From Candidatus Nanopelagicales bacterium (GTDB lineage: Bacteria; Actinomycetota; Actinomycetes; S36-B12), in contig JALRGY010000003.1 in assembly GCA_023253325.1 (NCBI GenBank), positions 1 through 59,128 of the forward strand: a stretch of 59,128 bases of DNA, written 5' to 3'. Each line of letters begins with the position of its first letter. Position 1 is the first letter of the stretch. The notes below the pieces were generated by a model, which saw nothing but the letters and a program-made list of their open reading frames with translations, did no database searches and was not told where the DNA came from. Shown piece by piece: positions 10,529-57,750 of the stretch. The translations under genes and the position numbers were made by a program.

Positions 10529-10605
10529 GGGTGCAGAGTACCCATAGACCCCGAGTTTCTGAACCCTGAACCCGGACGGTCACAATCTCGCCGCTGGATA
10601 GAAAG

Positions 10606-11144: not shown

Positions 11145-11148
11145 GGCA

Positions 11149-11171: not shown

Positions 11172-11183
11172 TCGGGCAAGAAG

Positions 11184-11642
11184 TTAGCTTTGAGAACCAT
11201 CCTCATTCCGCGCAACACACATTGATTCCAGCCACAGGCCCGAAACCACCAGAATGATGGATCCGATGGCTGCGAGAAATGCCGAAATCATGGTTGACCA
11301 TCCGGCCGGTGTTGCAGATTGCCCAACGGCAACGAGGGCGACCCCAAGATAAAACCCGGCAATGACCGCACCGGTGCGGCTCGCGGCCATGGCGAGGACC
11401 GCAATGCGCGCAGACGCTAATGGCGGGAATGGCTGGGCACCCGGTTTACGTTCAAGGCGCGGTTTGGCAAAAAGAGTCCAGAGACCAACGCTGACCCCAA
11501 GAATCCAGAGAGCAGCCGGTGCAAGACTCGGCACCGGGATACTTCGCCCCGTTTGGCCTTGAACTATTTCTGCGCTTGCCCACCCAATGGCACCAAGGAC
11601 AACAAAAATTATGGCTAGGTGCGAGACCTTGGTGTGACCCAT
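11184..11642 (-). CDS. DUF3180-like integral membrane protein (conserved downstream of folK in actinobacteria)
   Basis: Four predicted hydrophobic helices, 152 aa. The start overlaps the folK stop. The position is equivalent to the membrane protein following folK in mycobacteria. Confidence 0.65.
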   Translation of the reverse strand: MGHTKVSHLAIIFVVLGAIGWASAEIVQGQTGRSIPVPSLAPAALWILGVSVGLWTLFAKPRLERKPGAQPFPPLASARIAVLAMAASRTGAVIAGFYLGVALVAVGQSATPAGWSTMISAFLAAIGSIILVVSGLWLESMCVARNEDGSQS

Positions 11643-12160: not shown

Positions 12161-13342
12161 CTACCTGTGCTTGTAACGACTGACAACGACATCACCGAAA
12201 TCACCTTCAATGGGCGCATCAGGTTTATGAACCCTGACATTAACGGAGACTACCTGAGGAAAATTCAAACAATCCGAGGCAATGGACTCAGCAAGTTTCT
12301 CAATCAGATCAACCGGCTCACCGGTGATTCGTGCCCTGATTGCATCAGATACTTCCGCGTAATTGACTGTATCCGCGAGGTTATCGGTTTGCGCTGCATG
12401 TGCAATGGAGATTCCCAGAGTGGCATCAATGGAAAAGTACTGTCCATTCTCGCGTTCATGTTCCAGCACACCGTGATAGCCGAAATCCCTGACACCAAAT
12501 ATTTCAATCGTGTCCATGGTGGGATTGGGGTTGACCGCATTGAGCGCCTTAATTGCGTCATCCGTTGCCTTCACATCATGAACACGCACCCCCCACACTC
12601 CTCGCTGAAGCATCTGGGCACCGATAACAGCGGATGCAATATCCCTGTCCTGCTCCGAGCGTTGATTGCCGTCGGGATCAGCCAAGAGATGCCCAAGGAA
12701 ACGCTTGCGAGAAACACCAACAAGGAGTGGAAAGCCCAGACTCTGAAGATAATCGAAACGGTGAAGCAGTTCCCAATTATGTTCAAATGTCTTGCCAAAC
12801 CCAATTCCTGGATCAAGAATAATGTTGTTCTTATGGATACCGGCAGCACGTGCGCGATCCACTTGTAACTGCAACTCGGTTCGAACATCCTGCACAACGT
12901 CGGTGTAAGCAATGTTCTCTTGCATTGTTTTGCTCGGCCCACGCCAGTGCATGAGAATTATGGGCACATTTAATTCCGCGGCAGTGCTCAACATTTCTGG
13001 GTCAGAAAGTCCGCCGCTGACATCGTTGATCATCGAGGCACCTGCATCTACCGCTGCGTGAGCGACTTGAGCATGCATGGTGTCAATACTGACGTACATG
13101 CCTCTACTAACAAGCTCCTTGATAACGGGGAGCACACGGTCAAGTTCCACATCAACAGGTATGCGCTCTGCTCCGGGTCTGGTGGACTCGCCACCGACAT
13201 CAATGATCTGGGCTCCTTGGCTCACCATGTCCTCGGCCGCGAGAACTGCCGCGTTCACATCTGCGTACCGGCCGCCATCAGAGAAAGAATCAGGTGTGAC
13301 ATTGAGGATCCCCATAATGACACCGGGATTCCGAATGCTCAT
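12161..13342 (-). CDS. folP-folB: fused dihydropteroate synthase (N-terminal about 275 aa) and dihydroneopterin aldolase (C-terminal 118 aa)
   Basis: The N-terminal part carries GILNVTPDSFSDGG, DVGGESTRPG and INDVSGG (FolP). From MDTIEIFGVRDFGYHGVLEHERENGQYF (codon 276, about nt 12517) the sequence is FolB-like. There is no stop between the two parts. Confidence 0.85.
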   Translation of the reverse strand: MSIRNPGVIMGILNVTPDSFSDGGRYADVNAAVLAAEDMVSQGAQIIDVGGESTRPGAERIPVDVELDRVLPVIKELVSRGMYVSIDTMHAQVAHAAVDAGASMINDVSGGLSDPEMLSTAAELNVPIILMHWRGPSKTMQENIAYTDVVQDVRTELQLQVDRARAAGIHKNNIILDPGIGFGKTFEHNWELLHRFDYLQSLGFPLLVGVSRKRFLGHLLADPDGNQRSEQDRDIASAVIGAQMLQRGVWGVRVHDVKATDDAIKALNAVNPNPTMDTIEIFGVRDFGYHGVLEHERENGQYFSIDATLGISIAHAAQTDNLADTVNYAEVSDAIRARITGEPVDLIEKLAESIASDCLNFPQVVSVNVRVHKPDAPIEGDFGDVVVSRYKHR

Positions 13343-36463: not shown

Positions 36464-38143
36464 CTACTTGATGCGAATTGGCTTGGACATGGTGGAAATC
36501 GGGTAGACCGTGGTCTGCTCGACCCTCGGGGTGTAAACAGCCTTCAGGGTGTAATAGCCCTTGGGCAGCGACCGTGGGATCCGCTTTACCTTCTTTGCAA
36601 TCCCATTCCCTTTAACCCACTTGCCCTTTGCAATGACGAGCACCTCGAGTCCGGCAGCATTCACAATGCTCATGCGTACTTTGCCCTTAACCGAGTTGCT
36701 ACTAAATATCGTGCGGAATAATCTGCGATCTCCTCGCTTGATGGCCTTAGCGGCTTTGAGAGTTGCAGTCACCCCAGGAACGAGTTGCACAGTTTGTGCA
36801 CCAACAACCGGTGTCGGTGGCAATTTGGGCGGTAACCCATCAATAGCAAGGCGCGCACTCTTGTCTGCAACATTTGATGTTCCATTGAGGTTCGTTGCCT
36901 TGACAGAGACCCGAACAAATTGGCTCGCATCGTCATCCGTCAGAACGTAGGAGTCCTTGGTTGCTCCAGTGATCGCCTGACATGATGCGTCAGTGTTCGC
37001 ACTGCAACGTTCCCATTGGTAGGTGTAAGACGATGGCAGGTAATTCCACTTACCAGGATTTGCCGTCACGGTGGCGCCAGTTTTTGTGCTCGTTGCCGTC
37101 AGATTGGGGTCCGCATCTGGTGTTGGAACAACACCTGTCAGTAGTCGACCCAGGTTGTTCGATGTCTTGCTGGTAAACCACATGTTGCCATCAACACCGG
37201 CGGCGATTCCAAAAGGACCGGTGTTCGATCCTGGCAGAATAAACTCGGTTGCAATGCCTGCGGTGGTCACGCGGCTGATCCGATTGGCACCCGGCTGCGT
37301 CACCCACAGATCTCCCTGCGCCCCCAAAGCAATTTGCTCAGGCAGCGAATTTGCCGTTGGGAGCGAGAACTCAGCAAGTAAACCCTTGGCGCTCATGCGA
37401 CCAAGTCGGTTTCCGTCTCGCTCGGTGAACCAGAGATTGTTGTCTTCGCCGAGAGTGATGTCCGTGGGGGCTGATTTTGAGTTCGGGAGTGCATACGGGG
37501 TCAAAACTCCTGATGTGGTCATGCGACCAATGGTGTTTCCTGTCTGCATGGTGATCCACAGCGCACCATCAGGTCCTGTCACGATAGCTGTGGGACCACT
37601 GTCGGCAGGCAGGGCAAACTCGGTAATCGCACCAGTTTTGGTGATTCGCCCAATTTTGTTTCCAGCAAATTCGGTGAACCACATGGCTCCATCGGGGCCT
37701 GCTGTGATCCCCATGGGCTGGGAGTCCTTGGTGGGAATGTCATATGCCTGATAGGTATTGGTGTCGGCATTGAAGGCGCCGATTCGGTTACCGAGACGCT
37801 CGGTGAGCCACATGCGCGAGTCGGAACCCAATGCGAAACTGTGAGACCCCGCATTCGCATCGCCGTTTGCAATGGCGATGGTTGCCATCACCCCGGTCGG
37901 AGTTGCTTTAGCAACTTGATCCACGGCGCTCATCGCAATCCACATCGCACCCGAGTTATCAAGGGCTAGGCCCTCAGGGGCGGCATTGGCAAATGCAAGG
38001 GGAAAATTCGTGACATCGCCCGTTGCTGCCTGCGCCGTAGTGCTCGAGGCAACCAAGCCGACACCACTGGCAATCAGTCCGAGGGACATGGACATGGACA
38101 CTATTTTTCGCGGTACTGCGCGATTCAGGGGAAGTATGTGCAT
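36464..38143 (-). CDS. secreted seven-bladed beta-propeller protein with Vgb (streptogramin B lyase)-like repeats plus a C-terminal Ig-like domain and a basic tail
   Basis: Signal peptide ending AQA-A. Seven repeats of about 42 aa of the form P.GI..GPDGAMWFTE..GN.IGR.T..G...EF.LP. Then an Ig-like YTYQWERC...C..ITGAT module. Start trimmed to MHILPLNR (GGAGG just upstream). The ORF-track start is 38185. Confidence 0.75.
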   Translation of the reverse strand: MHILPLNRAVPRKIVSMSMSLGLIASGVGLVASSTTAQAATGDVTNFPLAFANAAPEGLALDNSGAMWIAMSAVDQVAKATPTGVMATIAIANGDANAGSHSFALGSDSRMWLTERLGNRIGAFNADTNTYQAYDIPTKDSQPMGITAGPDGAMWFTEFAGNKIGRITKTGAITEFALPADSGPTAIVTGPDGALWITMQTGNTIGRMTTSGVLTPYALPNSKSAPTDITLGEDNNLWFTERDGNRLGRMSAKGLLAEFSLPTANSLPEQIALGAQGDLWVTQPGANRISRVTTAGIATEFILPGSNTGPFGIAAGVDGNMWFTSKTSNNLGRLLTGVVPTPDADPNLTATSTKTGATVTANPGKWNYLPSSYTYQWERCSANTDASCQAITGATKDSYVLTDDDASQFVRVSVKATNLNGTSNVADKSARLAIDGLPPKLPPTPVVGAQTVQLVPGVTATLKAAKAIKRGDRRLFRTIFSSNSVKGKVRMSIVNAAGLEVLVIAKGKWVKGNGIAKKVKRIPRSLPKGYYTLKAVYTPRVEQTTVYPISTMSKPIRIK

Positions 38144-38328
38144 GACCTCCACGGTGCCATAGTCAAAGGCTCGACCCAAGAACATGAGTCTTTGCTCGTG
38201 TCGCTAGGGCATTACTTGACCGAGAGTTCGTCCTCGGGCACCGCAAATATAAATGAGGCCAGGCGCGCAAAGCCAGTGCATAGACCCTTGATTCAGTGGT
38301 CACTGCACGAGTATGGCTGGGCAGGGGA

Positions 38329-38556
38329 CTAGCCGCCGCACATAGGGTTCTGATTTACGTTTTGGGTGCTGGGCTCACAGCCTCCACCTAAGCCCGTGCC
38401 CCCAGCCACAGCCTCCAGATCGGTGTCGGTGAGATCTTCATTGTGGTCTGGCTGCGGCTCATTCATGAGCGTAGTGTGCACCACTCCAATGGGAATCTGC
38501 AGGAGCCCAAAGCGGCTGAACTTCTGGTTCGTGTCCATGCCGCATCCGTTTCCCAC
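38329..38556 (-). CDS. small ORF encoding a canonical double-glycine leader peptide and a 22-aa Gly/Cys-containing core (candidate bacteriocin/RiPP precursor)
   Basis: ...MNEPQPDHNEDLTDTDLEAVAGG / TGLGGGCEPSTQNVNQNPMCGG. LTDTDLEAVAGG fits the LSxxELxxIxGG leader consensus at every conserved position. Possible starts are GTG 38556, ATG 38538 and ATG 38466. Confidence 0.55.
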   Translation of the reverse strand: MGNGCGMDTNQKFSRFGLLQIPIGVVHTTLMNEPQPDHNEDLTDTDLEAVAGGTGLGGGCEPSTQNVNQNPMCGG

Positions 38557-38625
38557 GGCCCCACTTTCGAGTATCTGGAGAGCTGAAGAAAATCAGCACC
38601 GTAGTCCTAGATCTCAATTGAAGAA

Positions 38626-40155
38626 TTACACGTGCGCGGCATTCACCGCGTCACCCTTGGCCATGTCCTTCTTACTCATGTTCACGAGACTGACCCAAAT
38701 GATTGCGGCACCGACCAAGATGATCGCACTCCAACCAAATGCATCGGTGAATCCTTCAACGAGAGCATCAGGTGTTGGACCTTGAAGTTGGTTTGCCACG
38801 ATGTAAGCGGCAGTGGCAGATGTCGCAATGGTGTTCAGGAATGCGATGCCCACCGAGCCACCAATTTGCTGGCTTGTGTTCAAAACGGCAGACGCAACAC
38901 CAGCATCGTGGTCACCAACGGCGTAAAGCGCGGTTGCCGAAAGCGGTACAAAGATCAATCCCATTCCGAGGGAGATGAGAATCATGGGAGGCAAAATTCC
39001 AGACACATAAGAAGTGTCGGCCGCCATCTTTGTGAACCAGGCAAGTCCGGAGATGGCAAGTATGAAACCGCCAAAGGTGACAAAGCGTGGTCCAAAACGT
39101 GGGAGTAATTGACTCGCAATTCCAGCACTGACAATCACACCTGCAGAGAATGGCAGGAATAGCATTCCTGATTTGAGGGCGGAATAACCCAAGACTGCTT
39201 GGAAGAAGTAGGTGAGGAACAGGAACATGGAGAAAATTCCAATACCGACGAAGAAGCTCGCAAGATAGGCGCCACCACGGTTGCGGTTACGAATTATCTT
39301 CAGTGGCAACAGCGGATGCGATGAACGCATTTCAATGAAGATGAACAGTGTCAAGAGCGCAAGACCAAGACCCATGAAGCCGAGGGTTGTTTGACCGGTC
39401 CAGCCATTGGCTTCAGCCTGCGTGATGCCGTAAACCAAAGAGACAAGACCGAGGGTCGCGGTCACAGCGCCGGGGATGTCGTACTTAGTGTCTCCGTGAG
39501 CACGACTTTCATGCACAAAAGGAATAGCGAGAAGCACGGCGAAAATTGCGATGGGAACGTTCACCCACAGGGTCCAGTGCCAGGAAACGAATTCGGTGAG
39601 CACGCCACCCATGACTAGACCAATTGCCGCACCGGCACCCGAGATCGCACCGTAGACACCGAACGCTCGCGCACGTTCTTTGGATTCGGTGAAAGTGACA
39701 GAGATCAAGCTGAGCGCAGCGGGTGCCAGCAACGCAGCGAAAACGCCTTGTAATCCGCGAGCGGCGAAAAGCATTGCACTGTTGACTGCCAATCCACCGA
39801 GCGCAGAAGCACCCGCGAATCCCAGTAGGCCCACTATCAACATTCGCTTGCGACCTGCGAAGTCGGCGATACGCCCACCAAGTAGGAGCAGACCTCCGAA
39901 TGCGAGGGTGTAAGCCGTCACGACCCATTGGCGCTGTACGTCATCAAAGCCAAGATCGGCCTGCATAGTTGGCAATGCGATGTTCACGATTGACGCATCA
40001 AGAACCACCATCAACTGAGCGATGGCGATCACGATCAGCGCGCGCCACCGATTGGGATCTGGAACAACAGCAGCGGAAAGGGGGACGGCGGACGCGCTCA
40101 CGAGGACTCCTGACAAAAAGCATTGATGCCGCGCATCAGATAGTTGCGCGTTCAA
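38626..40155 (-). CDS. MFS transporter, DHA2 (EmrB/QacA) family, 14 TMS
   Basis: Motif A-like GGRIADFAGRKR, about 14 hydrophobic segments, 509 aa. The start is uncertain. Confidence 0.85.
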   Translation of the reverse strand: MNAQLSDARHQCFLSGVLVSASAVPLSAAVVPDPNRWRALIVIAIAQLMVVLDASIVNIALPTMQADLGFDDVQRQWVVTAYTLAFGGLLLLGGRIADFAGRKRMLIVGLLGFAGASALGGLAVNSAMLFAARGLQGVFAALLAPAALSLISVTFTESKERARAFGVYGAISGAGAAIGLVMGGVLTEFVSWHWTLWVNVPIAIFAVLLAIPFVHESRAHGDTKYDIPGAVTATLGLVSLVYGITQAEANGWTGQTTLGFMGLGLALLTLFIFIEMRSSHPLLPLKIIRNRNRGGAYLASFFVGIGIFSMFLFLTYFFQAVLGYSALKSGMLFLPFSAGVIVSAGIASQLLPRFGPRFVTFGGFILAISGLAWFTKMAADTSYVSGILPPMILISLGMGLIFVPLSATALYAVGDHDAGVASAVLNTSQQIGGSVGIAFLNTIATSATAAYIVANQLQGPTPDALVEGFTDAFGWSAIILVGAAIIWVSLVNMSKKDMAKGDAVNAAHV

Positions 40156-45849: not shown

Positions 45850-46070
45850 TTCTCCTCTTTCTGCTTCAGGTACTTCAAAGCCCCTCGAACTTCCGCCGAG
45901 GCCTCTTGGGGGTGGTTGCCAACATAAGCATCCAACTGGGCGATCATGGATGGCGCCCAGAAAGTGCGCAAGTGATCTCCAACAGCTTGAGTGACATGAG
46001 ACCTGTCAGGAATATTGCGAGCTATCTGTTCAACCATTTTGATCAAAGTTTGATTGTCGCCAGCGCTCAC
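45846..46070 (-). CDS. fdsD: NAD-dependent formate dehydrogenase delta subunit
   Basis: MVEQIARNI...VGDHLRTFWAPSM resembles FdsD (ANQIA..F...HI..FWEPRM). The GTG start overlaps the fdsA stop (GTGA). The ORF-track start is 46130. Confidence 0.7.
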   Translation of the reverse strand: MSAGDNQTLIKMVEQIARNIPDRSHVTQAVGDHLRTFWAPSMIAQLDAYVGNHPQEASAEVRGALKYLKQKEEK

Positions 46071-48844
46071 GCTTTCACCGCATGACTGGAAGGTTGCACT
46101 TGGACCGCAGTGACCTTGTATTCCGGACAATTAGTCGCCCAATCGGAGTTATCAGTGGTAATGACGTTTGCCCCACTAACGGGGTAATGGAAAGTGGTAA
46201 ATACAACTCCAGCCGGAACTTGATCAGTGATGCGAGCGCGCAGTTGAGTCGCGCCAACTCGGCTGGAGACCTCGACCCAGGAACCATCAGTGATCCCGCG
46301 CTCAAGAGCATCCGACTCATGAATATCTAACACGTCTTCCTGATGCCACACGACATTGTTGGTGCGTCGAGTTTGAGCACCAACGTTGTACTGACTCAAA
46401 ATCCGACCGGTCGTGAGCAGCAATGGATACTTGCGGGTGCTTTTTTCATCGGTCGGGACGTATGGGGTAGTGATGAATTGGCCCTCACCACGCACAAATT
46501 TTTCCACGTGCATGATGGGCGTGCCATCTGGTGCATTGTCGTTACACGGCCATTGCACACTGCCCACCGCATCGAGTTTGGCAAATGAAACGCCAGCGAA
46601 TGTAGGTGTGACAGTCGCAATTTCATCCATGATCTGAGCTGCATCGGAATAATGCATGTCATAACCCATTGCTTGAGCCAATGCGCAGGTCACTTCCCAC
46701 TCGGCCATTCCTGTTTGCGTTGGCATCACTGGCCGCACTCGATTTATGCGGCGTTCGGCATTGGTGAACGTTCCATCCTTTTCCAAGAATGATGTGCCCG
46801 GGAGGAAAACATGCGCATACTTCGCCGTTTCGTTCAAGAATAAGTCTTGAACGATGACCATGTCCATGGCAGAGAGTGCAGCCGTTACATGCTCGGTGTT
46901 CGGATCAGACTGAGCAATGTCCTCACCCTGAATGTAGATTCCGCGGAATGACTTGGAGAGTGCAGCATCAAGCATGTTGGGGATTCGCAAGCCCGGTTCG
47001 GCTCGCATGTCGGTCCCCCAAAGTGATGCAAACAACTCTCTGGTGGACTCGTCTGACACGTGTCGATAGCCACTGAACTCGTGTGGAAAGGACCCCATGT
47101 CACATGAGCCCTGAACATTATTTTGGCCTCGCAGCGGATTGACACCAACTCCTGCTCGGCCAATGTTTCCCGTTGCCATGGCAAGGTTCGCCATCGCCAT
47201 CACCATGGTCGAACCTTGGGAATGTTCCGTGACGCCGAGACCGTAATAGATTGCAGCGTTCGGCGCGGACGCGAATAGGTGCGCAGCAGCCCGAAGCTCC
47301 TGGGCACTCACACCCGTAATCGACTGCAAGGTCTCCGGACTGTTTTCCGGGAGAGAGATGAAGTCCTGCCACGCATTGAACGACACCATGTCACAACGGT
47401 CCTCGACGAACCCTTTGTCTACCAACCCTTCCGTGACCACGACATGGCCCATGGCGTTGACTATCGCGACATTCGTTCCGGGGCGTAGTTGCAAGTGATG
47501 CGCAGCCTTGATGTGCGGCGTTTCCACCAGAGCGATTTTGCGTGGATCAACCACTACCAGTTGTGCGCCCTTGCGAAGCGCTTGCTTCATGCGCGAAGCA
47601 AATACCGGGTGCGCATCGGTCGGGTTCGCACCGATAAGCAGAATGACGTCAGACTGCTCCACCGACTGGAAGTCTTGAGTCCCTGCGCTCGTGCCAAAAG
47701 TTTGCTTCAAGCCATAGCCAGTTGGAGAGTGACATACGCGAGCACAGGTATCAACATTGTTGTTGCCGAATCCTGCCCGGACCAATTTCTGGACTACATA
47801 CACTTCCTCGTTGGTGCAACGAGATGATGTAATTCCTCCAATTGCATCGATTCCGGACTCCGCTTGTATTGCTTTGAGCCCTCGAGATGCAAAATCAATT
47901 GCCTCCTGCCAGGAAACAACTTTCCAAGCATCGGTGATGCGATCACGGATCATGGGCTCTGTGACTCGATCGGCATGCGAGGCGTATCCCCAGGCGAATC
48001 GACCCTTGACGCATGAGTGTCCCTCGTTCGCTCCACCGTTTTTGTCAGGAACCATGCGCACGAGTTCATTGCCTCGGAGTTCGGCGATGAAAGAGCAGCC
48101 CACACCACAATAGGCACAGGTGGTTTTTACTTGGCGAGTTGGAACGCCTAGTTCAATAACTGTTTTTTCCTGCAGAGTGGATGTGGGACACGCCTGAACA
48201 CACGCACCACATGACACGCATTCACTATCAATAAATTTCAGACCCTCGCTCGCGGAGACCTTGGAGTCAAATCCACGACCAGAAATGGTCAAAGCAAATG
48301 TTCCTTGGATTTCATCGCAGGCGCGAACGCATCGACTGCAAGCAATGCACTTTGACTCATCAAACGAGAAATAGGGATTGGAGTCATCGGTTGGTGCAGC
48401 CAAGTGGTTATGGCCCTCGAAGCCGTATCGGACATCGCGCAATCCAACAACGCCGGCCATGTCTTGCAGTTCACAGTCCCCGTTGGCAGGACATGTCAGG
48501 CAATCAAGTGGATGGTCAGAGATGTACAGCTCCATGACGCCCTTGCGCAGCTTGTCCAATCGTGGCGACTGAGTAGTAACAGACATTCCCGGCTCACACG
48601 GAGTTGTGCATGATGCAGGCGTCCCCTTGCGCCCATCAATTTCAACCAAACACAGCCGGCAAGAGCCGAATGGATCGAGGGAATCGGTCGCACAAAGCTT
48701 GGGAACACTCTTGCCCGCGAGGGCGGCAGCGCGCATGACTGACGTTCCTGATGGGATCTCCACCTGCTGACCATCGATGGTGACCTGCACCGTCTCCTGT
48801 GAATCAACCTCAGGCGTGCCTAGGTCGGAAGTGGTGATACTCAT
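46067..48844 (-). CDS. fdsA: NAD-dependent formate dehydrogenase alpha subunit (molybdopterin, Fe-S)
   Basis: N-terminal 2Fe-2S and 4Fe-4S Cys clusters, molybdopterin oxidoreductase domains, and an active-site segment ARVCHSPTGYG (Cys, not Sec). 925 aa. Confidence 0.92.
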   Translation of the reverse strand: MSITTSDLGTPEVDSQETVQVTIDGQQVEIPSGTSVMRAAALAGKSVPKLCATDSLDPFGSCRLCLVEIDGRKGTPASCTTPCEPGMSVTTQSPRLDKLRKGVMELYISDHPLDCLTCPANGDCELQDMAGVVGLRDVRYGFEGHNHLAAPTDDSNPYFSFDESKCIACSRCVRACDEIQGTFALTISGRGFDSKVSASEGLKFIDSECVSCGACVQACPTSTLQEKTVIELGVPTRQVKTTCAYCGVGCSFIAELRGNELVRMVPDKNGGANEGHSCVKGRFAWGYASHADRVTEPMIRDRITDAWKVVSWQEAIDFASRGLKAIQAESGIDAIGGITSSRCTNEEVYVVQKLVRAGFGNNNVDTCARVCHSPTGYGLKQTFGTSAGTQDFQSVEQSDVILLIGANPTDAHPVFASRMKQALRKGAQLVVVDPRKIALVETPHIKAAHHLQLRPGTNVAIVNAMGHVVVTEGLVDKGFVEDRCDMVSFNAWQDFISLPENSPETLQSITGVSAQELRAAAHLFASAPNAAIYYGLGVTEHSQGSTMVMAMANLAMATGNIGRAGVGVNPLRGQNNVQGSCDMGSFPHEFSGYRHVSDESTRELFASLWGTDMRAEPGLRIPNMLDAALSKSFRGIYIQGEDIAQSDPNTEHVTAALSAMDMVIVQDLFLNETAKYAHVFLPGTSFLEKDGTFTNAERRINRVRPVMPTQTGMAEWEVTCALAQAMGYDMHYSDAAQIMDEIATVTPTFAGVSFAKLDAVGSVQWPCNDNAPDGTPIMHVEKFVRGEGQFITTPYVPTDEKSTRKYPLLLTTGRILSQYNVGAQTRRTNNVVWHQEDVLDIHESDALERGITDGSWVEVSSRVGATQLRARITDQVPAGVVFTTFHYPVSGANVITTDNSDWATNCPEYKVTAVQVQPSSHAVKA

Positions 48845-50400
48845 GCCCGTTCCTTCCCTGCTGGCTCAAAATCTGATCGGAATTTGTGGAGTGCACTCAG
48901 GACAGGTAAAGGAGTAAGCCCGCCCATTGCGCACAAAGATCCATCCCTCATAACTTCACATAGATCTTCCAATAATTCAATATTCTCTGCTCTATCGTGC
49001 CCACTAATAATCAGGTCAATGACTTCAGAGCCACGAGTTGACCCAATTCGACACGGCGTGCACTTGCCACAGGACTCTTCAGCGCAAAATTCCATGGCGA
49101 ACTTTGCTTGACGAGACATGTCCACGGTGTCATCGAAAACGACGACGCCTCCATGGCCCAGCATCCCGCCGATCTCTAGAAGTGATTCGTAATCTGCCGA
49201 AGTGTCCAATTCGGCTTCATTGAGATAAGCCCCGAGAGGGCCGCCAACCTGCACCGCGCGAATGGGGCGACCAGAAAGAGTAGATGCGCCATAACCGTCA
49301 ATGAGTTCGCGCAATGTGATGCCAAACCCCGTTTCAACGATGCCCCCCTGCGCAATATTCCCTGCGAGCTGAAAGACCGAGGTGCCTCGTGATCGACCTG
49401 TGCCTAGTTCAGCGTAGGCACCTGCACCCTTGGCCAGGATTGCTGGAACGCTGCCAATAGAAATGACATTGTTAATGACAGTGGGAACCCCAAAAAGTCC
49501 TTCGAGTGCAGGAAGCGGTGGCTTCGGTCGAACCATCCCGCGCTTGCCTTCCAAGCTATCCAACATGGCGGTTTCTTCACCACAGACATAGGAGCCGGCT
49601 CCGACCCTCACGTGCACGTCGAATGAGAAGTCTGAATCAAGTATGGATTGACCGAGCCAGCCCAATGCGCGAGCTGCGTCAATTGCCTGCTGCATAGAGT
49701 GAATGGCAGAGGGATACTCACTCCTTATGTAGATGTATCCCGTGTCAGCCCCGACCGCGAATCCAGCAATGATCATTCCCTCCAGCAGAGTGAATGGGTC
49801 CCCTTCCATCAACATGCGATCCGCAAAAGTTCCACTGTCGCCTTCATCGGCGTTCACGCACACGTATTTATGCAACGGAGAACCCAGTGGATCTCCTGAA
49901 TGCACTGCCGCCTGAGCATCAGCGACAGTTTTCCACTTAACGCCCGTGGGGAAACCTGCCCCGCCACGGCCCCGAAGACCCGACTCGGTCACCTGAGTGA
50001 TGGTTGCCTCTGGCCCAATCTGGAGTGCGGTTCTCAAACCATTGAGGCCCCCGTGTGCAAGAAAATCGTCGCTCGACGTTGGGTCAATGATTCCCACGCG
50101 CTCAAAGGTCCACCGCTGTTGATTTTTTAACCATGTCAACTCATGAGTTATTCCAAGATAGGAAGGAGATGATGCAAAGTCTCCTGAAAGGTTGAGTGCG
50201 TCAACATCCTCTGGTTGAACCGACCCGAATGCATGACGAGCTCCACCTACTTCAATTTCAACGAGTGGCTCGAGCCAGAGCATTCCACGCGAGCCATTGC
50301 GCACGATGACCGCTTGAGGGTGCGCCTTTTGCAGCGCCGCCGCAACCCTGTCCGCTCCAACAGAAACTGCGGCACTATCGCGTGGAACAAATATTTTCAT
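48841..50400 (-). CDS. fdsB: formate dehydrogenase beta subunit (NuoF-like, FMN/NAD/4Fe-4S)
   Basis: GLRGRGGAGFPTG, NADEGDSGTF, and the C-terminal ESCGKCTPCR cluster motif. Confidence 0.92.
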   Translation of the reverse strand: MKIFVPRDSAAVSVGADRVAAALQKAHPQAVIVRNGSRGMLWLEPLVEIEVGGARHAFGSVQPEDVDALNLSGDFASSPSYLGITHELTWLKNQQRWTFERVGIIDPTSSDDFLAHGGLNGLRTALQIGPEATITQVTESGLRGRGGAGFPTGVKWKTVADAQAAVHSGDPLGSPLHKYVCVNADEGDSGTFADRMLMEGDPFTLLEGMIIAGFAVGADTGYIYIRSEYPSAIHSMQQAIDAARALGWLGQSILDSDFSFDVHVRVGAGSYVCGEETAMLDSLEGKRGMVRPKPPLPALEGLFGVPTVINNVISIGSVPAILAKGAGAYAELGTGRSRGTSVFQLAGNIAQGGIVETGFGITLRELIDGYGASTLSGRPIRAVQVGGPLGAYLNEAELDTSADYESLLEIGGMLGHGGVVVFDDTVDMSRQAKFAMEFCAEESCGKCTPCRIGSTRGSEVIDLIISGHDRAENIELLEDLCEVMRDGSLCAMGGLTPLPVLSALHKFRSDFEPAGKERA

Positions 50401-50888
50401 GATCCACCAACCATGCTGGAGACAAGCGACTCAATCTTTCGTGCCGTGGCACGCCCAAGGAGTTCGTTATTAACCATCACGGCAGGTCCCAGTGCACAAT
50501 TCCCCAGACAAAAGACCTCTTTCGTGGCGACACTTTCACCAGCGAATTCGCCAGCGCAAAGGTCTTTCCACTCACTTTCCAATTCCCGTGAGCCAACAGC
50601 CTGACAGGCCTCGGCTGCACACAAACGGACGGTAACTTGCGCAGGCGGCTCGGTCACAAGATCCGAGTAGTACGTCAGGACGCCAAAAGTTTCAGCTTTC
50701 GAAACATTGCATAGTCGAGCGATCACTGGAATCCCAGACTCGGGTACATAACCAAAATGTTCTTGGATTCTTTGCAAGCAACGCAATAGCGAACCGGGTT
50801 CCTGAGACAGTTGATCTAACAAGACCGTTATTTCCTGATCAAACTCCCCTTCTGGCAGGGCGACCTCTTCCTGTCTCTTCTTGGCCAT
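50397..50888 (-). CDS. fdsG: formate dehydrogenase gamma subunit (NuoE-like 2Fe-2S)
   Basis: Thioredoxin-like 2Fe-2S Cys pattern (CAAEAC...CLGNCALGP). I chose the start MAKKRQ, where the ATG overlaps the fdhD stop (TAATG). The ORF-track start is 50900. Confidence 0.88.
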   Translation of the reverse strand: MAKKRQEEVALPEGEFDQEITVLLDQLSQEPGSLLRCLQRIQEHFGYVPESGIPVIARLCNVSKAETFGVLTYYSDLVTEPPAQVTVRLCAAEACQAVGSRELESEWKDLCAGEFAGESVATKEVFCLGNCALGPAVMVNNELLGRATARKIESLVSSMVGGS

Positions 50889-51757
50889 TACGCCACCCAC
50901 TCCTGACCACTATAAACATTCATGCGACCTTCGCGGGCGAAACCAATGAGTAATTGATCATGTTCGCGGGCCAATTCTACCGCCAAACTTGTTGGACCCG
51001 ACACCGCAACAATGGCTCCAATGCATGCGGTTAACGCTTTGGCCACTATTTCGTATGAAACTCGACCACTCACCACGAGGACATGGTCTGTCAATGGCAG
51101 GAGGTTGCTGGTTAATGCGTGTCCAATAACTTTGTCCACTGCATTGTGTCGACCGACATCCTCGCGCACAAATAGAACTTCGTTGCCCGGACCAACCAGT
51201 GCGGCTGCATGAAGCGCACCGGTCATGTCGAACATTTTTTGACGCGATCGCATTTGCTCGACCATTTGTGATGCCTGACGTGGGTCGAATTTCCATTTTG
51301 GTCCATGCAATGGAGCCCAAGGCGGTGTGAATTCATCAAGGACATCAGCGCTGCACACACCACATGATGAAGATGTGATGTAAGCACGTGGCCTCGGTGG
51401 GATGACATTCTCGGCTAGCGTCACTCGCACGGTGTCAATCTCTGGATTCGTAATATCATCATGGTCAACTTCGTAGTCTGTCCCAACAGCACGTAATCGC
51501 GTTGACCCAGCGAATGCCCGCATGGTTGTGATCTGGTCTGGCATTCGTAATCCGGCTTCGCTTACCAGCCAACCTGCCGCCAAATCCAAGTCGTGCCCCG
51601 GTGTTCTCATTGTGGTTGCCAATACTTGTTCGCCCAACGCAATGGTGAGCGGCGCTTCAACAACAACACGATCAATTCGGTCCCCGCGCAGTGCACGCGC
51701 GCCTTCCTTCTCGCTCTCCCAGCGAAGAGTGGTGAAAGGGCGAGTAGTTTGTGACAT
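50888..51757 (-). CDS. fdhD: formate dehydrogenase accessory sulfurtransferase
   Basis: FdhD motifs (TPG.D.DLA.G, SSCGVCS, GRHNA.DK). Confidence 0.9.
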   Translation of the reverse strand: MSQTTRPFTTLRWESEKEGARALRGDRIDRVVVEAPLTIALGEQVLATTMRTPGHDLDLAAGWLVSEAGLRMPDQITTMRAFAGSTRLRAVGTDYEVDHDDITNPEIDTVRVTLAENVIPPRPRAYITSSSCGVCSADVLDEFTPPWAPLHGPKWKFDPRQASQMVEQMRSRQKMFDMTGALHAAALVGPGNEVLFVREDVGRHNAVDKVIGHALTSNLLPLTDHVLVVSGRVSYEIVAKALTACIGAIVAVSGPTSLAVELAREHDQLLIGFAREGRMNVYSGQEWVA

Positions 51758-51760
51758 GGT

Positions 51761-53443
51761 TTAAAACAATCCCACAATCGCTCCATCGACCAGGTCAATG
51801 CGCTCACTGGACGGCACTTTGGGGAGCCCTGGCATGGTCATGATGTCGCCACACACTGCGACGATGAAACCAGCGCCCGCCGAAAGTCGAACTTCTCGGA
51901 TATTGAGGCTGTGCCCCTCGGGTGCTCCCTTGAGCGCAGGGTCCGTTGAAAATGAATACTGCGTCTTTGCAATACACACGGGGAAGTCTCCATAGAGCTC
52001 CTGGAGCTCTTTGAGTTGGGCACGCACCTTGGCATCAGCCGTGACTTCACTAGCACCATAAATTGTGCTTGCTATGGCCGAAATTTTCTCAAGGAGCGTT
52101 AACTTGTCTTCATAAACGAATGATTCGTGCGGTTGTGTTGCAGGTCTGGCATCCGCATCACAGAGACCCGCGACAACGTCGGCTAATGCGGTTGCTCCTG
52201 CACCACCTTGAGCCCAATGCATTGAGACGACAATGGGGATTCCCATTGCCTCAACATGCGTGGTCAAAAGGTCAATTTCCGCTTGAGTGTCCGCGGTGAA
52301 ATGATTGATTGAGACAACAACCGGTAAGCCATAGTTGTTGCGAATATTGTCCAGGTGGCGGTCCAAGTTGGCGAACCCCAACTCAAGCGCCTCAAGGTTC
52401 TCTTCACTCAGATTCTTTGGATCCGCACCGCCATGAAATTTCAAAGCTCGGACGGTGGCAACGATGACGGCCGCGGACGGATGGATTCCTGCGGCCCTGC
52501 ACTTTATATCAATGAATTTCTCAGCGCCGAGGTCCGCACCAAAACCTGCCTCGGTAACAACGTAATCCGCCAGCTTCAACGCATTCGTCGTCGCGATTAC
52601 CGTGTTGCAGCCATGCGCGATGTTGGCAAATGGACCACCGTGCACAAACGCGGGTGTCCCTTCAAGAGTCTGAACAAGATTCGGTGCCAGTGCATTCTTG
52701 AGTAGCACGGTCATGGCACCTTGGGCATTGAGCTGACTTGCCGTCACTGGCTCTTTGCCCCTGGTGTAGCCCACAACAATGCGCCCAATGCGCTCGCGCA
52801 GGTCTTCTTCATCAGTTGCCAAACAGAAGATGGCCATGATTTCTGATGCAACAACGATGTCAAAGCCGTCCTGACGTGGAAAGCCATTCCCTGGACCACC
52901 CAAGCCAACGGTGATATCACGCAATGCTCGATCGTTCATGTCAAGCACGCGCTTCCAAGTGATTCGCCGAACATCGATACCGAGTGCATTTCCGTGATGA
53001 ATATGGTTATCAATCAATGCAGCGAGAAGGTTATTGGCCAGTCCAATTGCATTGAAGTCACCGGTGAAATGAAGGTTGATGTCTTCCATGGGTACGACCT
53101 GAGCGTAACCACCGCCTGCAGCCCCGCCCTTCATGCCAAAGACCGGGCCCAATGATGGTTCCCGCAGACACACCATGGTGTTCTTGCCAATCTTGCGCAG
53201 TCCATCACCCAGCCCGACAGTTGTTGTTGTCTTGCCTTCACCCGGAGGAGTTGGACTGATTGCCGTGACCAAAATCAATCGCGCGGTCTGGCGCTCCGGC
53301 AATGTTGCTAACCAGCCAAGATCGATTTTTGCTTTTGTCCGACCGTATGGCTCGACTGCGCTTTCTGGAATGTTGAGCTCAGCAGCGATCTCAGCAATGG
53401 GTCGCAGAGTTGCAGCTTGAGCGATATCAATATCACTGGGCAT
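51761..53443 (-). CDS. fhs: formate--tetrahydrofolate ligase
   Basis: [16 protein letters not shown]-loop and the FTHFS signature [14 protein letters not shown]. 560 aa. Confidence 0.95.
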
Positions 53444-53471
53444 TAATTTTCCCGTTCCACTATATGGCTCA

Positions 53472-54431
53472 TCAGTTGGTTGCGGCTTTTAATTTTTCAA
53501 TGAAGAGCGGGAGGAACGTGTGAACATTGTCCACCACCATGTAGTCCGCGTATCCCATGATTGGAGCCTGCGAATCGGTATTGATTGCAATGAGTGTTTT
53601 CGCAGACTTGCAGCCGGCAATGTGCTGGGTTGCACCACTAATTCCGCAGGCAAGGTAAAGGTCGGGTGCCACTTTCGTGCCAGTCTGACCCACCTGTTCT
53701 GCATGCGGCCGCCAGCCCGCACTGGTCACCACGCGGGAGCAACCGACAGCACCGCCAATTGAGCCAGCGATTTCCTCCAACATGACGAATGCGTCAGGGC
53801 CATCCATGCCACGTCCACCGGAAACAACAACCTTGGCCTCAGCCAAGCCAACCCCGCCCGCGGATGAACCCACACGATCCTCGACACGAACGAGTACGTC
53901 ACCGTCGGCTAATTCGACATCGAATTCGCTCACGACAAGTGGGGAATCAGCAGGAATTGCTGCGAAAGCATGCGCCTGAACCGTTGCGATCAGCAGGCTT
54001 GATTTCACTGTTGCCTCATCGAGCAGGTTGCCTCCCCAGCGCGCACGCACGATTTCTGCGGTGTCACCGCTGGCAAGTTCAATGGAGACACACTCGCTCG
54101 CGAATGGTTCATCACGCATCGCTGCCAAATGACCGAGTACTTCATTTCCGCGTGGTGTTCCACCCGCTATCACCGCTCGGGGAGAATTGGCCGTCACGAG
54201 TGCATTCACAGCGCGCGCATGTGCGCGTGGAGTGAAGTCGAGCAGTTCGGGGTGATTGCCCACGTGAACGCTCACGGCACCAAACGCCGCGAGTTCGGTC
54301 GCAACGTCCTTGGCACCGTGACCAACGACTACTGCTTGCACATCTGCGTCCAGTGCCTTGGCAGCTGAGATTGCCTGCAGAGTTACTGGGTCGAGCTCTC
54401 CACGATCATGTTCTGCGTACACCAGGATCAT
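53472..54431 (-). CDS. etfA: electron transfer flavoprotein alpha subunit
   Basis: C-terminal FAD-binding motif (VGQTG..V.P.LY.A.GISGA.QH..G). Confidence 0.92.
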
Positions 54432-55186
54432 GACAAAACTCCGATCTGCTTCATAACTTCAACGAGGGCATCTGCTGCCTCGGCACCCGTGCCGAGGTTT
54501 GTTGCTCCCTTTGCCTCTTGAACGGGAACGACCAACTGCTTGGTGGTGATGCGTGAATCAGCAAATGAAACCTGCTTGATGTCAACGGGCTTTTTACGTG
54601 CTTTCATGCGACCCGGTACCGATGCATACCGCGGAATGTTGAGACCGTCTTTCACTGTTATCACAGCGGGAAGCGGCACCGTGTACACCTCTCGGGTTGA
54701 ACCCACGGCGCGCTCGCATGTGGCTATGCCGCCATCAATCTTGAGTCCCTTGACGGATGTCACAACCGGTAATCCAAGTTTGTGAGCAACGCGGATACCC
54801 GTTTGTGAGCCGCCGTAGTCCGCACTCTCTGAACCCATGAGCACCAAATCAAAGTCGGTGTCATCGGCACTAATTGCATCGGCCAGCGCCGCTGCCGCCG
54901 CCTGTGGATCAGGCTCAACACCATTGGTGTCGATCAAAATTGCTCGATCAGCACCAATGGCCATTTGCTCCCGGATCTGTTCTTCACCATCAACGTGTCC
55001 CATGTTGATGAGTGTGACCGAGCCGCCGTTTTCTTCGACCAGCTTCACGGCCGCCTCAACCGCGCACTCTTCGTGCGGACTCAGACCAAAGCCAACTTTT
55101 GACGTGTCAATGGCCATGTTGTCCGCGGTGAGCACGATTGCACTGCCAAGTAGTGGCACTCGTTTGATGCATACAGCAATGTCCAT
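54428..55186 (-). CDS. etfB: electron transfer flavoprotein beta subunit
   Basis: EtfB-like N-terminus (IAVCIKRVP) and overall fold. 4-nt overlap with etfA. Confidence 0.92.
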   Translation of the reverse strand: MDIAVCIKRVPLLGSAIVLTADNMAIDTSKVGFGLSPHEECAVEAAVKLVEENGGSVTLINMGHVDGEEQIREQMAIGADRAILIDTNGVEPDPQAAAAALADAISADDTDFDLVLMGSESADYGGSQTGIRVAHKLGLPVVTSVKGLKIDGGIATCERAVGSTREVYTVPLPAVITVKDGLNIPRYASVPGRMKARKKPVDIKQVSFADSRITTKQLVVPVQEAKGATNLGTGAEAADALVEVMKQIGVLS

Positions 55187-57705: not shown

Positions 57706-57750
57706 GTGTTTCCCTTTCATAATGTTCTGCGTTCGGTGCAGAAGATTTAT

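What the first reader, a model, noticed from the sequence alone, without database searches (positions are those of the whole stretch)
38329..38556. Orphan ORF with a textbook double-glycine secretion leader and a 22-aa Gly/Cys core
The last 45 codons read MNEPQPDHNEDLTDTDLEAVAGG followed by TGLGGGCEPSTQNVNQNPMCGG. Counting back from the GG, the conserved leader positions are all occupied as in class II bacteriocin, microcin and prochlorosin-type leaders: L-12, T-11, D-8, L-7, V-4, G-2, G-1. The predicted core is glycine-rich with two Cys (core positions 7 and 20) and three Ser/Thr. That composition suits either a disulfide-bridged colicin V-like peptide or a thioether (lanthionine) peptide. 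Nothing in this 59-kb window encodes a C39-peptidase ABC exporter, a lanthipeptide synthetase or an immunity protein, so the gene is orphan. The start codon is ambiguous. GC3 stays high upstream of the ATG at 38466, so the leader could be 23 to 53 aa long. An automated annotation would easily miss or mislabel a precursor like this in what looks like a streamlined actinobacterial genome.
Basis: partly seen in the sequence, partly recalled or inferred. Interest (0 to 1): 0.78.

Follow-up and report, generated by a model that had tools for sequence, protein, structure and literature searches.

The report
Conserved orphan double-glycine leader peptide gene
A real, conserved 45-50-codon gene in an estuarine planktonic actinobacterium encodes a peptide whose front half looks like an export-and-cleave tag, but no processing or export genes lie nearby and its function is untested.

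Summary
The sequence is as described: window 38329-38466 (-) encodes MNEPQPDHNEDLTDTDLEAVAGG|TGLGGGCEPSTQNVNQNPMCGG. It is a genuine protein-coding gene. Near-identical 45-aa homologues occur in about 30 estuarine metagenome contigs and two 'Candidatus Nanopelagicales' MAGs. A 60%-identical homologue in a second lineage gives dN/dS of about 0.14 with saturated synonymous sites.

The last 13 leader residues meet every known rule for peptidase-C39 ABC exporter (PCAT) substrates: L-12, L-7, V-4, A-3, GG, or GA in the distant lineage. All weak database hits are to double-glycine RiPP leaders (Nif11, NHLP, lacticin 481). It belongs to no curated family.

The leader is 23 or 28-29 aa, not up to 53. 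The sequence upstream is a remnant of an alcohol dehydrogenase gene.

The gene sits in a recombining islet. Relatives have three more genes downstream: a 172-aa membrane ORFan, a PCuAC copper chaperone and a DyP peroxidase. A deletion of about 2.25 kb removed them here. The sister MAG with the same deletion has a nonsense codon in the peptide gene. The window's copy keeps every family-invariant residue.

No maturation or export gene was found in the 59 kb or within 10 kb in relatives. Best reading: a secreted two-Cys peptide processed by a distant PCAT. Confidence is moderate and function is untested.

The parts
38329..38466 (-). Peptide gene, 45 codons plus TAG (ATG start)
   Evidence: Sequence and ORF. 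Homologues P0002-P0008, P0010 and P0013. Coding test against L021.
38467..38484 (-). Conserved 18 nt upstream, holding alternative in-frame GTG starts at 38484 and 38481 (51- or 50-aa product). It could instead hold a -10-like element for a leaderless mRNA.
   Evidence: Homology with L001-type loci ends exactly at 38484. Codon -5 is a start codon in every allele: GTG, or ATG in L028. L020 has ATG(+1) changed to ACG. No Shine-Dalgarno sequence is in a suitable position (read from the sequence).
38398..38466 (-). Acidic leader, MNEPQPDHNEDLTDTDLEAVAGG (23 aa, charge about -7)
   Evidence: It aligns to residues 58-77 of the PDB 9zn4_A Nif11 leader at E 0.0036.
38398..38436 (-). 13-residue double-glycine recognition motif, DLTDTDLEAVAGG (L-12, L-7, V-4, A-3, G-2, G-1)
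   Evidence: Invariant L, L, V and G-2 across both lineages. Recognition rules from PMC6363468. Regex test.
38332..38397 (-). Putative 22-aa core, TGLGGGCEPSTQNVNQNPMCGG (Cys7, Cys20)
   Evidence: T1, G2, GGGCE, T, Q, N, N and the C-terminal Cys are conserved. Monoisotopic mass 2119.87 Da, GRAVY -0.63.
38504..38578 (+). Fragments of a deleted Zn-dependent alcohol dehydrogenase gene. They explain the high GC3 upstream of the ATG.
   Evidence: Matches L009 4447-4477 and 4534-4582, inside the intact ADH at L009 3690-4727.
38232..38303 (-). Stub of the 172-aa membrane ORFan gene (codons 1-10 and about 33-48), followed by the deletion junction
   Evidence: Matches L001 10192-10221 and 10289-10336. 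From 38241 the window continues with L001 12590 onwards. L001 10337-12589 (rest of the 172-aa gene, PCuAC and DyP) is therefore missing.
38626..40155 (-). Upstream neighbour: DHA2/EmrB-type MFS efflux permease. In relatives it is possibly co-transcribed, with a 35-nt gap.
   Evidence: PF07690 at 8e-54. TIGR00711 at 246 bits, above its 230.2 cut-off. Synteny.
36464..38185 (-). Downstream neighbour after the deletion: Vgb_lyase-family beta-propeller protein. Not part of the system.
   Evidence: PF24684 at 2.6e-118.

Best explanation
Window 38329-38466 (possibly starting at GTG 38481 or 38484) is a genuine small gene. Its product has two parts: a short, very acidic double-glycine leader and a 22-residue hydrophilic, Gly/Asn/Gln-rich C-terminal part with two conserved Cys.

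Proposed mechanism, all inferred. Residues -12 to -4 of the leader form a two-turn helix. That helix docks L-12, L-7 and V-4 into the hydrophobic groove of a peptidase-C39 domain of an ABC exporter (AMS/PCAT) encoded elsewhere in the genome. The leader is cut after G-2 G-1 during export. This releases TGLGGGCEPSTQNVNQNPMCGG, in which Cys7 and Cys20 probably close a disulfide loop. The released peptide would be a signal or a metal/redox-active peptide rather than a pore-forming toxin.

Shown: the gene belongs to a tiny family that is clade-restricted and patchily distributed. It lies in a recombining, gene-gain/loss islet. In this genome the three downstream genes (172-aa membrane ORFan, PCuAC copper chaperone, DyP peroxidase) have been deleted. 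The peptide gene is therefore a survivor that is still intact.
For: - Real gene. Homologues occur in 28+ contigs and two Nanopelagicales MAGs at the same syntenic site.
- Coding signal against the distant homologue L021. Differences by codon position are 10/10/22. Amino-acid identity is 26 of 43, against 17.5 +/- 2.1 in permutations (0 of 20000 reached the observed value). dS is saturated, dN is 0.265 and omega is about 0.14.
- The sense frame beats the antisense frame on BLOSUM score (148 versus 92), on absence of stops and on GC1/2/3.
- Leader. L-12, L-7, V-4 and G-2 are invariant. Position -1 is G, or A in the distant lineage. These are exactly the determinants shown for LahT150, which also cleaves after GA and GS. 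A 13-residue leader tail is sufficient for that enzyme (PMC6363468).
- The family profile hits a single PDB chain, the C-terminal 20 residues of a Nif11 leader (E 0.0036).
- The only NCBIfam hits are three double-glycine RiPP leader families.
- A profile search of 1.84 billion proteins also pulled out a protein built of 8 repeats of a canonical 'EDLEAIVGG + Gly-rich + 2 Cys' unit.
- The window allele keeps every family-invariant residue. Its lineage-specific changes are conservative and fall at variable positions.
Against: - No PCAT, modifying enzyme or recognisable immunity gene lies in the 59-kb window or within 10 kb in any relative.
- All family-model scores are far below cut-off, for example 13.4 against 50.9 bits.
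- Among close relatives dN/dS is 0.5-0.9.
- The sister MAG L019, which has the same deletion, has a nonsense codon at E18 and changes at invariant G27.
- L020 has lost the ATG.
- Conservation runs straight across the putative cleavage site and is as strong in the 'core' as in the leader. That is not typical of bacteriocins.
- The core is neither cationic nor hydrophobic.
- There is no expression or peptide evidence.
Confidence: 0.5

Rival explanations
1. It is a real small protein that is not an exported double-glycine peptide. On this reading it is an acidic cytoplasmic or membrane-associated accessory of the copper-handling module that follows it in relatives (172-aa His/Met-rich membrane protein, PCuAC, DyP). 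It might, for example, be a two-thiolate Cu(I)-binding or regulatory peptide. The GG-like motif would be convergent.
For: - In most relatives it lies 35 nt after the MFS gene and 53 nt before the 172-aa, PCuAC and DyP genes, on the same strand.
- Two conserved Cys are present.
- Conservation is continuous across the 'cleavage site'.
- Where the module was deleted, one of two copies is a pseudogene.
- No exporter or protease is nearby.
Against: - The second lineage (L021, L028) carries the peptide with no MFS, PCuAC, DyP or 172-aa gene nearby.
- L009 has an ADH gene inserted between the MFS and the peptide, so the linkage is loose.
- A match at all of L-12, L-7, V-4, A-3, GG plus acidic -5, -6 and -8, and hits only to GG-leader families, is hard to explain by convergence.
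- The 172-aa ORF has no homologues at all.
Confidence: 0.2
2. The family is functional elsewhere, but the copy in this window is a decaying relic. It would have been left behind after the deletions that removed ADH upstream and the 172-aa, PCuAC and DyP genes downstream, and would no longer be expressed or selected.
For: - Gene remnants lie on both sides of the ORF.
- Sister MAG L019 has the same architecture and a premature stop plus substitutions at invariant sites.
- Between window and L019 the ORF is less conserved (95.7%, all 6 differences nonsynonymous or nonsense) than the adjacent upstream remnants (98.3%).
- No promoter-like or terminator-like site was found by the simple scan.
Against: - Polarising with outgroups, 4 of the 6 differences, including the stop, are on the L019 branch. 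The window has one conservative V-to-L change at a variable site and one ambiguous change.
- All 23 family-invariant residues, the start codons and the stop are intact in the window.
- The ORF block survived while both neighbours were removed.
Confidence: 0.25
3. It is the precursor of a heavily modified RiPP (lanthipeptide, thiazoline-containing, lasso-like or radical-SAM-crosslinked) whose enzymes are encoded far away in the genome.
For: - The core has Thr/Ser plus Cys and a GGGC motif.
- Weak hits to the TIGR04149 rSAM-modified family and the lacticin-481 family.
- Nif11-type precursors are often encoded away from their enzyme, as in the prochlorosins (my own knowledge; Prochlorococcus MIT9313 with 30 substrates is mentioned in PMC6363468).
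- If the core began at G25 it would have Cys6 and Cys19 and Glu7. From memory this resembles the class III lasso peptide BI-32169. That is a lead only.
Against: - The leader has only about 10-15 residues before the protease motif, leaving little for an enzyme recognition element.
- No Lan, YcaO, lasso B/C or rSAM-SPASM gene lies in any of the contexts.
- For a lasso reading, Thr would be at -1 rather than -2.
- The genome is streamlined.
Confidence: 0.12
4. It is not a protein-coding gene. The conserved block would be a structured RNA or regulatory DNA element, or the antisense ORF (38366..38785, +) would be the real gene.
For: - Among close relatives the variable sites are spread 9/5/11 over codon positions. 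Synonymous divergence is 4-fold lower than in flanking genes (P = 7e-4).
- An antisense ORF sharing wobble positions is open in all alleles, including L019.
Against: - No Rfam match.
- RNAalifold gives no covariation and many pairs are broken in L021.
- The low dS is regional: the 172-aa and PCuAC genes share it, which points to recombination history.
- The distant comparison gives a clear sense-frame coding signal.
- The antisense ORF runs into non-homologous sequence and through the MFS gene. It has stops within the block, radical substitutions and a GC2 of 0.73.
Confidence: 0.03

Closest known systems
Nif11-type and NHLP-type double-glycine leaders of RiPP precursors (prochlorosin ProcA, LahA; TIGR03793/TIGR03798; PDB 9zn4_A)
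   Same: The last ~20 leader residues align: EPqpddkEdLTDtDLEgVaGG against [20 protein letters not shown]. Both share the '...L(S/T)D..LE.VAGG' ending, the hydrophobic -12/-7/-4 pattern and Ala at -3. Precursors can be encoded away from their enzymes.
   Different: It lacks the ~50-60-residue Nif11/NHLP domain entirely. TIGR03793 matches only model positions 63-77, at 13.4 bits against a 50.9 cut-off. No LanM, cyclodehydratase or PCAT lies nearby. The host is a Nanopelagicales-type actinobacterium.
Short double-glycine leaders of class II bacteriocins, microcins (colicin V) and peptide pheromones (ComC/BlpC type), exported by AMS/PCAT transporters
   Same: The leader length (23-28 aa) is similar. 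It is acidic, with GG cleavage-site determinants as defined for LahT150. The small core has a possible single disulfide, as at the C-terminus of colicin V (my own knowledge).
   Different: The core is hydrophilic and slightly anionic, not cationic or amphipathic. No transporter, accessory or immunity gene is adjacent. There is no hit to any bacteriocin family model.
P0012 (481 aa, locus L024, GCA_039815185.1): eight tandem repeats of 'IELSEEDLEAIVGG-xGGGG..C....CG.NHNETL', in a cluster with many 45-57-aa GG-leader peptides and an MvdD-type ATP-grasp
   Same: It is the only other protein, apart from low-complexity noise, found by the family profile among 1.84 billion representatives (E 6.5e-4, 8 stretches). 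Each repeat has a GG leader tail, then a Gly run, then two Cys. A 'HNE(D/T)L' element precedes the leader tail, as in 'DHNEDL' here.
   Different: It is a multi-core polyprotein in a different phylum-level background (47% GC), with candidate tailoring enzymes nearby. The Cys spacing is CxxxxC rather than Cx12-13C. The similarity is confined to the leader-like motif and may be convergent.

Membership tests
Double-glycine (AMS/PCAT, peptidase C39) leader peptides | Gly at -2 and Gly/Ala/Ser at -1 at the leader-core junction | tested here: met
   GG in all Nanopelagicales-clade alleles and GA in P0010/P0013. Cleavage after GA and GS is documented for LahT150.
Double-glycine (AMS/PCAT, peptidase C39) leader peptides | Hydrophobic residues at -4, -7 and -12 on one face of a short helix, with small or Ala at -3 | tested here: met
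   V-4, L-7 and L-12 are invariant in both lineages. Position -3 is A, or I in the distant lineage. Requirement taken from PMC6363468.
Double-glycine (AMS/PCAT, peptidase C39) leader peptides | A cognate C39-domain ABC transporter in the same genome | not testable with these tools
   None in the 59-kb window or within 10 kb in relatives. The whole genome could not be searched.
Double-glycine (AMS/PCAT, peptidase C39) leader peptides | Cleavage after GG and export of the C-terminal part | not testable with these tools
   Needs biochemistry or mass spectrometry.
Nif11 / NHLP leader RiPP precursor families (TIGR03798, TIGR03793) | Full-length leader domain scoring above the curated cut-off | tested here: not met
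   TIGR03793 scores 13.4 bits against a 50.9 cut-off and matches only model positions 63-77 of 77. TIGR03798 did not hit. Only about 10 residues precede the motif.
Lanthipeptide precursors (class I-IV) | A LanB/LanC, LanM, LanKC or LanL gene in the neighbourhood | tested here: not met
   No such Pfam family in the window or in any relative's context.
Lanthipeptide precursors (class I-IV) | Core with Ser/Thr and Cys able to form thioether rings, and a match to a precursor family model | tested here: inconclusive
   The core has T1, S10, T11, C7 and C20. The only model hit is NF040664 (lacticin 481) at E 0.021, in 1 of 6 members.
Class II bacteriocins / colicin V-like microcins | Cationic and/or amphipathic-hydrophobic mature peptide | tested here: not met
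   The core has GRAVY -0.63, charge about -1.6 at pH 7 and no Lys, Arg or His.
Class II bacteriocins / colicin V-like microcins | Adjacent immunity gene | tested here: inconclusive
   A 172-aa multi-TM ORFan follows the peptide gene in most relatives. It is deleted in the window and absent in the second lineage. Nothing shows that it confers immunity.
Lasso peptides | Thr at -2, Gly/Ala/Ser/Cys at core position 1, Asp/Glu at 7-9, and lasso B and C genes | tested here: not met
   If the core starts at G25, then E is at position 7 but Thr is at -1. If Thr is at -2, the core starts with L/V/I and E is at position 6. No B or C genes are nearby. The defining features are from my own knowledge.

The most novel reading that the evidence does not exclude
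The peptide gene would be a self-contained unit of about 200-450 nt, a 'minimal Nif11-tail' double-glycine peptide cassette. It would move by recombination between loci and lineages of genome-streamlined planktonic actinobacteria without any dedicated maturation genes, relying on a distal or shared exporter. In the Nanopelagicales clade it would have been recruited next to a copper module (His/Met-rich membrane protein, PCuAC, DyP). There the secreted two-Cys 22-mer would act as an extracellular Cu(I)-handling or redox peptide, a new kind of unmodified, ribosomal chalkophore-like factor.
Probability: 0.08. Interest if true: 0.75.

Novelty: new member of a known kind. Interest (0 to 1): 0.4.

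Why it matters
Nanopelagicales-type actinobacteria are among the most abundant bacteria in fresh and brackish water. They are thought to have almost no secondary metabolism or peptide signalling. A conserved secreted double-glycine peptide would be a rare handle on cell-cell interaction, or on extracellular metal or redox chemistry, in these mostly uncultured, streamlined organisms.

The case also shows how a short RiPP-like precursor can persist as a lone ORF in a decaying islet and escape curated family models, although the source gene call gave it an over-long start. The practical value is limited until a cognate protease/exporter and the mature peptide are shown.

Tried and rejected
1. Long leader (GTG 38556, 75 aa): rejected. 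The upstream part is an ADH remnant, and relatives have in-frame stops there.
2. Structured RNA: no Rfam hit and no covariation.
3. Antisense ORF as the true gene: rejected on stops, substitution quality and GC2.
4. Selection on synonymous sites as the cause of the low dS: replaced by a regional recombination history, because the 172-aa and PCuAC genes share the low dS.
5. Paralogues: none in the window or in any locus.
6. Phage origin: no hit in viral contigs.
7. More family members: the exhaustive profile search found only two true clusters. The metagenome and genome contig scans added only close relatives.
8. Identity of the 172-aa neighbour: no Pfam or NCBIfam hit and no homologues beyond its own cluster.
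9. An immunity-like small membrane ORF next to the peptide in the second lineage: none.
10. Obligatory linkage to the 259-295-aa Lcl_C-like protein: rejected, because L030-L032 have that gene without the peptide.
11. Taxonomy of the second lineage: not resolved.
12. Literature on RiPPs or bacteriocins in Nanopelagicales, or on GG peptides with PCuAC: nothing useful.
13. Simple promoter and terminator scan: no sites.

Full report
**Observation.** The minus strand of the window carries an ORF at 38329..38556 (75 aa from GTG). Its last 45 codons (ATG at 38466) read MNEPQPDHNEDLTDTDLEAVAGGTGLGGGCEPSTQNVNQNPMCGG. Every detail in the finding checks out: L-12, T-11, D-8, L-7, V-4, G-2, G-1, Cys at core positions 7 and 20, and three Ser/Thr. 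A strict double-glycine regex (L[ST]..[DE]L..[IV].GG) hits the six-frame translation of the window once, at this ORF. It hit 0 times in 200 shuffles, and a loose version is expected 0.2 times per window. The ORF lies in a gap of about 440 bp. Upstream is a DHA2/EmrB-type MFS permease (38626..40155; PF07690, and TIGR00711 at 246 bits). Downstream is a Vgb_lyase-family protein (36464..38185).

**Is it a gene?** A search of 5.8 billion proteins returned 45-51-aa homologues (P0002-P0008, 76-84% identical) from estuarine metagenomes. P0005 alone is seen on 28 contigs. The two GTDB species representatives that carry it are both 'Candidatus Nanopelagicales bacterium' MAGs, from San Francisco Bay and Chesapeake Bay.
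- These relatives are about 88% identical to the window in DNA across the flanks, so they say little by themselves.
- Against L001 the flanking genes have dS of about 0.52 and omega of 0.04-0.09. The peptide ORF has dS 0.126, dN 0.086 and omega of about 0.68.
- An exhaustive profile search of 1.84 billion representatives found one more distant cluster, P0010/P0013: MNEPRQNDDEELTDSDLESVIGATGIGGGCEPITQNSNTSGSC, 60% identical.
- Against that homologue the coding signal is unambiguous. Differences fall 10/10/22 over codon positions. Synonymous differences number 19.5 over 28 sites (saturated), dN is 0.265 and omega is about 0.14.
- Amino-acid identity is 26 of 43, against 17.5 +/- 2.1 when the same number of differences is placed at random (0 of 20000 permutations reached it).
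- The antisense frame that shares wobble positions scores worse on BLOSUM (92 against 148). It contains stops and has a non-genic GC2 of 0.73. The sense frame has GC1/2/3 of 0.65/0.46/0.63, like the neighbouring genes.
- Rfam finds nothing, and RNAalifold finds no covariation.
- I conclude that it is a protein-coding gene under purifying selection at the family level.

**Why dS is low among close relatives.** The 172-aa gene and the PCuAC gene that follow the peptide in relatives share the low dS (0.07-0.08, against 0.19 for the MFS gene in the L001-L009 pair). The whole segment downstream of the MFS gene therefore has a younger common ancestry than the flanks. It is a recombining islet, and selection on the peptide's synonymous sites is not needed to explain the pattern.

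**Start codon.**
- Homology with L001-type loci ends at 38484.
- In L001, L009 and L019 in-frame stops lie 17-22 codons upstream, and no canonical start codon precedes the GTG GTG at codons -6 and -5.
- Codon -5 is a start codon in every allele (GTG, or ATG in L028). L020 has ATG(+1) mutated to ACG.
- The product is therefore 45 aa (ATG 38466) or 50-51 aa (GTG 38481 or 38484), which gives a leader of 23 or 28-29 residues.
- The high GC3 further upstream comes from fragments of a Zn-ADH gene on the other strand (window 38504-38578 matches L009 4447-4582). That gene is intact in L009.

**Local anatomy.** Relatives show four arrangements:
- MFS, peptide, 172-aa membrane ORFan, PCuAC copper chaperone, DyP peroxidase, Vgb. 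This is the most common.
- The same without DyP (L020).
- With ADH inserted between the MFS gene and the peptide (L009).
- MFS, ADH remnant, peptide, Vgb. This is found in the window and in L019.

In the window, 38303-38274 and 38279-38232 are codons 1-10 and about 33-48 of the 172-aa gene. From 38241 the sequence continues with the last 39 nt of DyP. L001 10337-12589 (about 2.25 kb) has therefore been deleted. The peptide ORF is an intact survivor between two gene wrecks.

Its sister L019 has the same architecture, but its peptide reads MNEPQSDQNEDLTDTDL*AVAGGTGVSGGCEASTQ.... Between window and L019 the ORF is 95.7% identical, and all six differences are nonsynonymous or nonsense. The upstream remnants are 98.3% identical. 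Polarised with outgroups, four of the six changes are on the L019 branch: the stop, G27S, P32A and P6S. The window has one conservative V26L change and one ambiguous change at a variable site. So L019 is decaying. The window allele retains all 23 family-invariant residues.

**Second lineage.** In L021-L023, L028 and L029 the peptide segment is about 450 nt. It lies between a direct duplication of about 170 nt. The duplicated sequence is the promoter and first 32 codons of a 259-295-aa membrane-anchored protein with a PT-linker and an Lcl_C-like domain. Relatives L030-L032 have that gene without the peptide. There is no MFS, PCuAC, DyP or 172-aa gene there. The peptide gene therefore behaves as a small, patchily distributed cassette, and its linkage to the copper module is not obligatory. 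The 172-aa ORFan has no homologue outside its own 90% cluster and no family assignment.

**What the leader resembles.**
- Pfam gives nothing.
- NCBIfam gives only sub-threshold hits, and all are to double-glycine RiPP precursor families. TIGR03793 NHLP hits 5 of 6 members (model positions 63-77 only; 13.4 bits against a 50.9 cut-off). TIGR04149 hits 3 of 6. The lacticin-481 family hits 1 of 6.
- The family profile hits exactly one PDB chain, residues 58-77 of a 'Nif11 domain-containing protein' (9zn4_A). Its sequence [20 protein letters not shown] aligns with EPqpddkEdLTDtDLEgVaGG at E 0.0036.
- Bobeica et al. (PMC6363468) showed the following for the C39 protease LahT150. The last 13 leader residues suffice. 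[quoted passage not shown] Ala-3 is near-invariant but tolerant of change. GG, GA and GS are all cleaved.
- This peptide meets all of these rules, and L-12, L-7, V-4 and G-2 are invariant across both lineages.
- It is not a member of the Nif11 or NHLP families, because it lacks the large N-terminal domain. It works like their C-terminal tail, or like a short class II leader.

**Machinery.** Pfam scans covered 30 further ORFs of the window. They show NAD, pantothenate and folate biosynthesis, FtsH, TilS, PstSCAB, Moco synthesis, formate dehydrogenase, FTHFS, ETF and a DMGDH-like enzyme. Precomputed Pfam annotation of the syntenic 20 kb in relatives adds nothing else. There is no C39 peptidase, ABC exporter, Lan enzyme, YcaO, lasso B/C or rSAM-SPASM gene. 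No paralogue exists in the window or in any locus, and there are no phage copies. The whole genome could not be searched with these tools.

**Most likely mechanism (inferred).** The leader is recognised and cut after GG by a PCAT encoded elsewhere. This releases a 22-mer (2119.87 Da reduced; GRAVY -0.63; charge about -1.6). Its Cys7 and Cys20 can form a disulfide loop. The hydrophilic, anionic core argues against a colicin V-like or class II pore-former. A signal, or a metal/redox-active peptide, fits better.

Points against the model:
- The protease/exporter has not been found.
- Conservation runs straight across the putative cleavage site.
- Omega is high at short range.
- One relative carries a nonsense allele and another has lost its start codon.

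Rivals and my confidence in each:
- A non-exported accessory of the copper module: 0.2.
- A relic copy in this genome: 0.25, not exclusive of the others.
- A heavily modified RiPP with distant enzymes: 0.12.
- A non-coding element: 0.03.

**Novelty and interest.** The peptide belongs to no curated family. In 15 billion proteins it has only two detectable clusters. In kind it is a new member of the well-known double-glycine leader peptides. Its occurrence as a lone cassette in streamlined Nanopelagicales-type plankton is moderately interesting. So is its position next to a copper-chaperone module in most relatives. Without the protease/exporter, expression data or a detected product, I rate it 0.4.

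Noticed in passing
window 38504-38578 (+ strand sense); L009 3690-4727; L019 1243-1470: Fragments of a Zn-dependent alcohol dehydrogenase/quinone oxidoreductase gene lie between the MFS gene and the peptide gene. The gene is intact in L009, partly deleted in L019 and more deleted in the window. This gives a stepwise deletion series within one clade.
   Followed up: partly
window 38232-38303 and junction near 38241; L001 10192-12628: A deletion of about 2.25 kb removed a copper-handling trio present in most relatives. The trio is a 172-aa His/Met-rich membrane ORFan, a PCuAC with a Met-rich MSSGMSSG tail, and a DyP peroxidase. L020 lacks only DyP. The 172-aa ORF has no homologues outside this clade, and some gene callers pick its opposite strand (a 94-aa call).
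   Followed up: partly
L024 (GCA_039815185.1, JBCBZT010000027.1) 589-1920, 8780-11446, 13031-13228: This is a dense cluster of canonical double-glycine peptides, such as ...LSEADLSLIAGG|KPKEDDQPIDGE. It also holds three multi-repeat precursors (142, 146 and 481 aa) in which leader-like 'EDLEAIVGG' units alternate with short Gly/Cys cores and 'NHNETL' spacers. Neighbours include an MvdD-type ATP-grasp and a haem-oxygenase-like/cupin protein. It looks like a multi-core RiPP system.
   Followed up: no
L028 350-523 versus 990-1163; L021 2850-3106; L030 5900-6100: In the second lineage the peptide segment is flanked by a direct duplication of about 170 nt (promoter plus first 32 codons of the downstream membrane-anchored protein). 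This creates an in-frame 96-aa fusion ORF in L028 (P0013). The hydrophobic stretch MILVGVNLTGSMLPMTIGAMFTV precedes MNEP. Whether this acts as a captured signal-anchor is unknown.
   Followed up: partly
L001/L009/L013: peptide, 172-aa and PCuAC genes versus the MFS gene: The segment downstream of the MFS gene has 2-4-fold lower synonymous divergence than the flanking core genes, yet higher dN/dS. The L013 PCuAC allele is very divergent from that of L001 (dN of about 0.2). These are signs of a recombining, allele-swapping islet.
   Followed up: partly
protein cluster of P0003: A 387-aa RNase D-like protein (P0009) is listed as a member of the 45-aa peptide's 90% cluster. It is evidently a clustering or database artefact.
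   Followed up: no
L020 4671-4826: The Chesapeake Bay MAG allele has the canonical ATG changed to ACG. Translation there, if any, must start at the upstream GTG GTG.
   Followed up: yes
window 46067-57720: A run of one-carbon and methylated-amine genes lies on the minus strand. It includes formate dehydrogenase (alpha subunit plus an Nuo51-like subunit), FdhD, formate-tetrahydrofolate ligase, ETF alpha and beta, and an 844-aa DAO/GCV_T (dimethylglycine or sarcosine dehydrogenase-like) enzyme with a GntR/FCD regulator.
   Followed up: no
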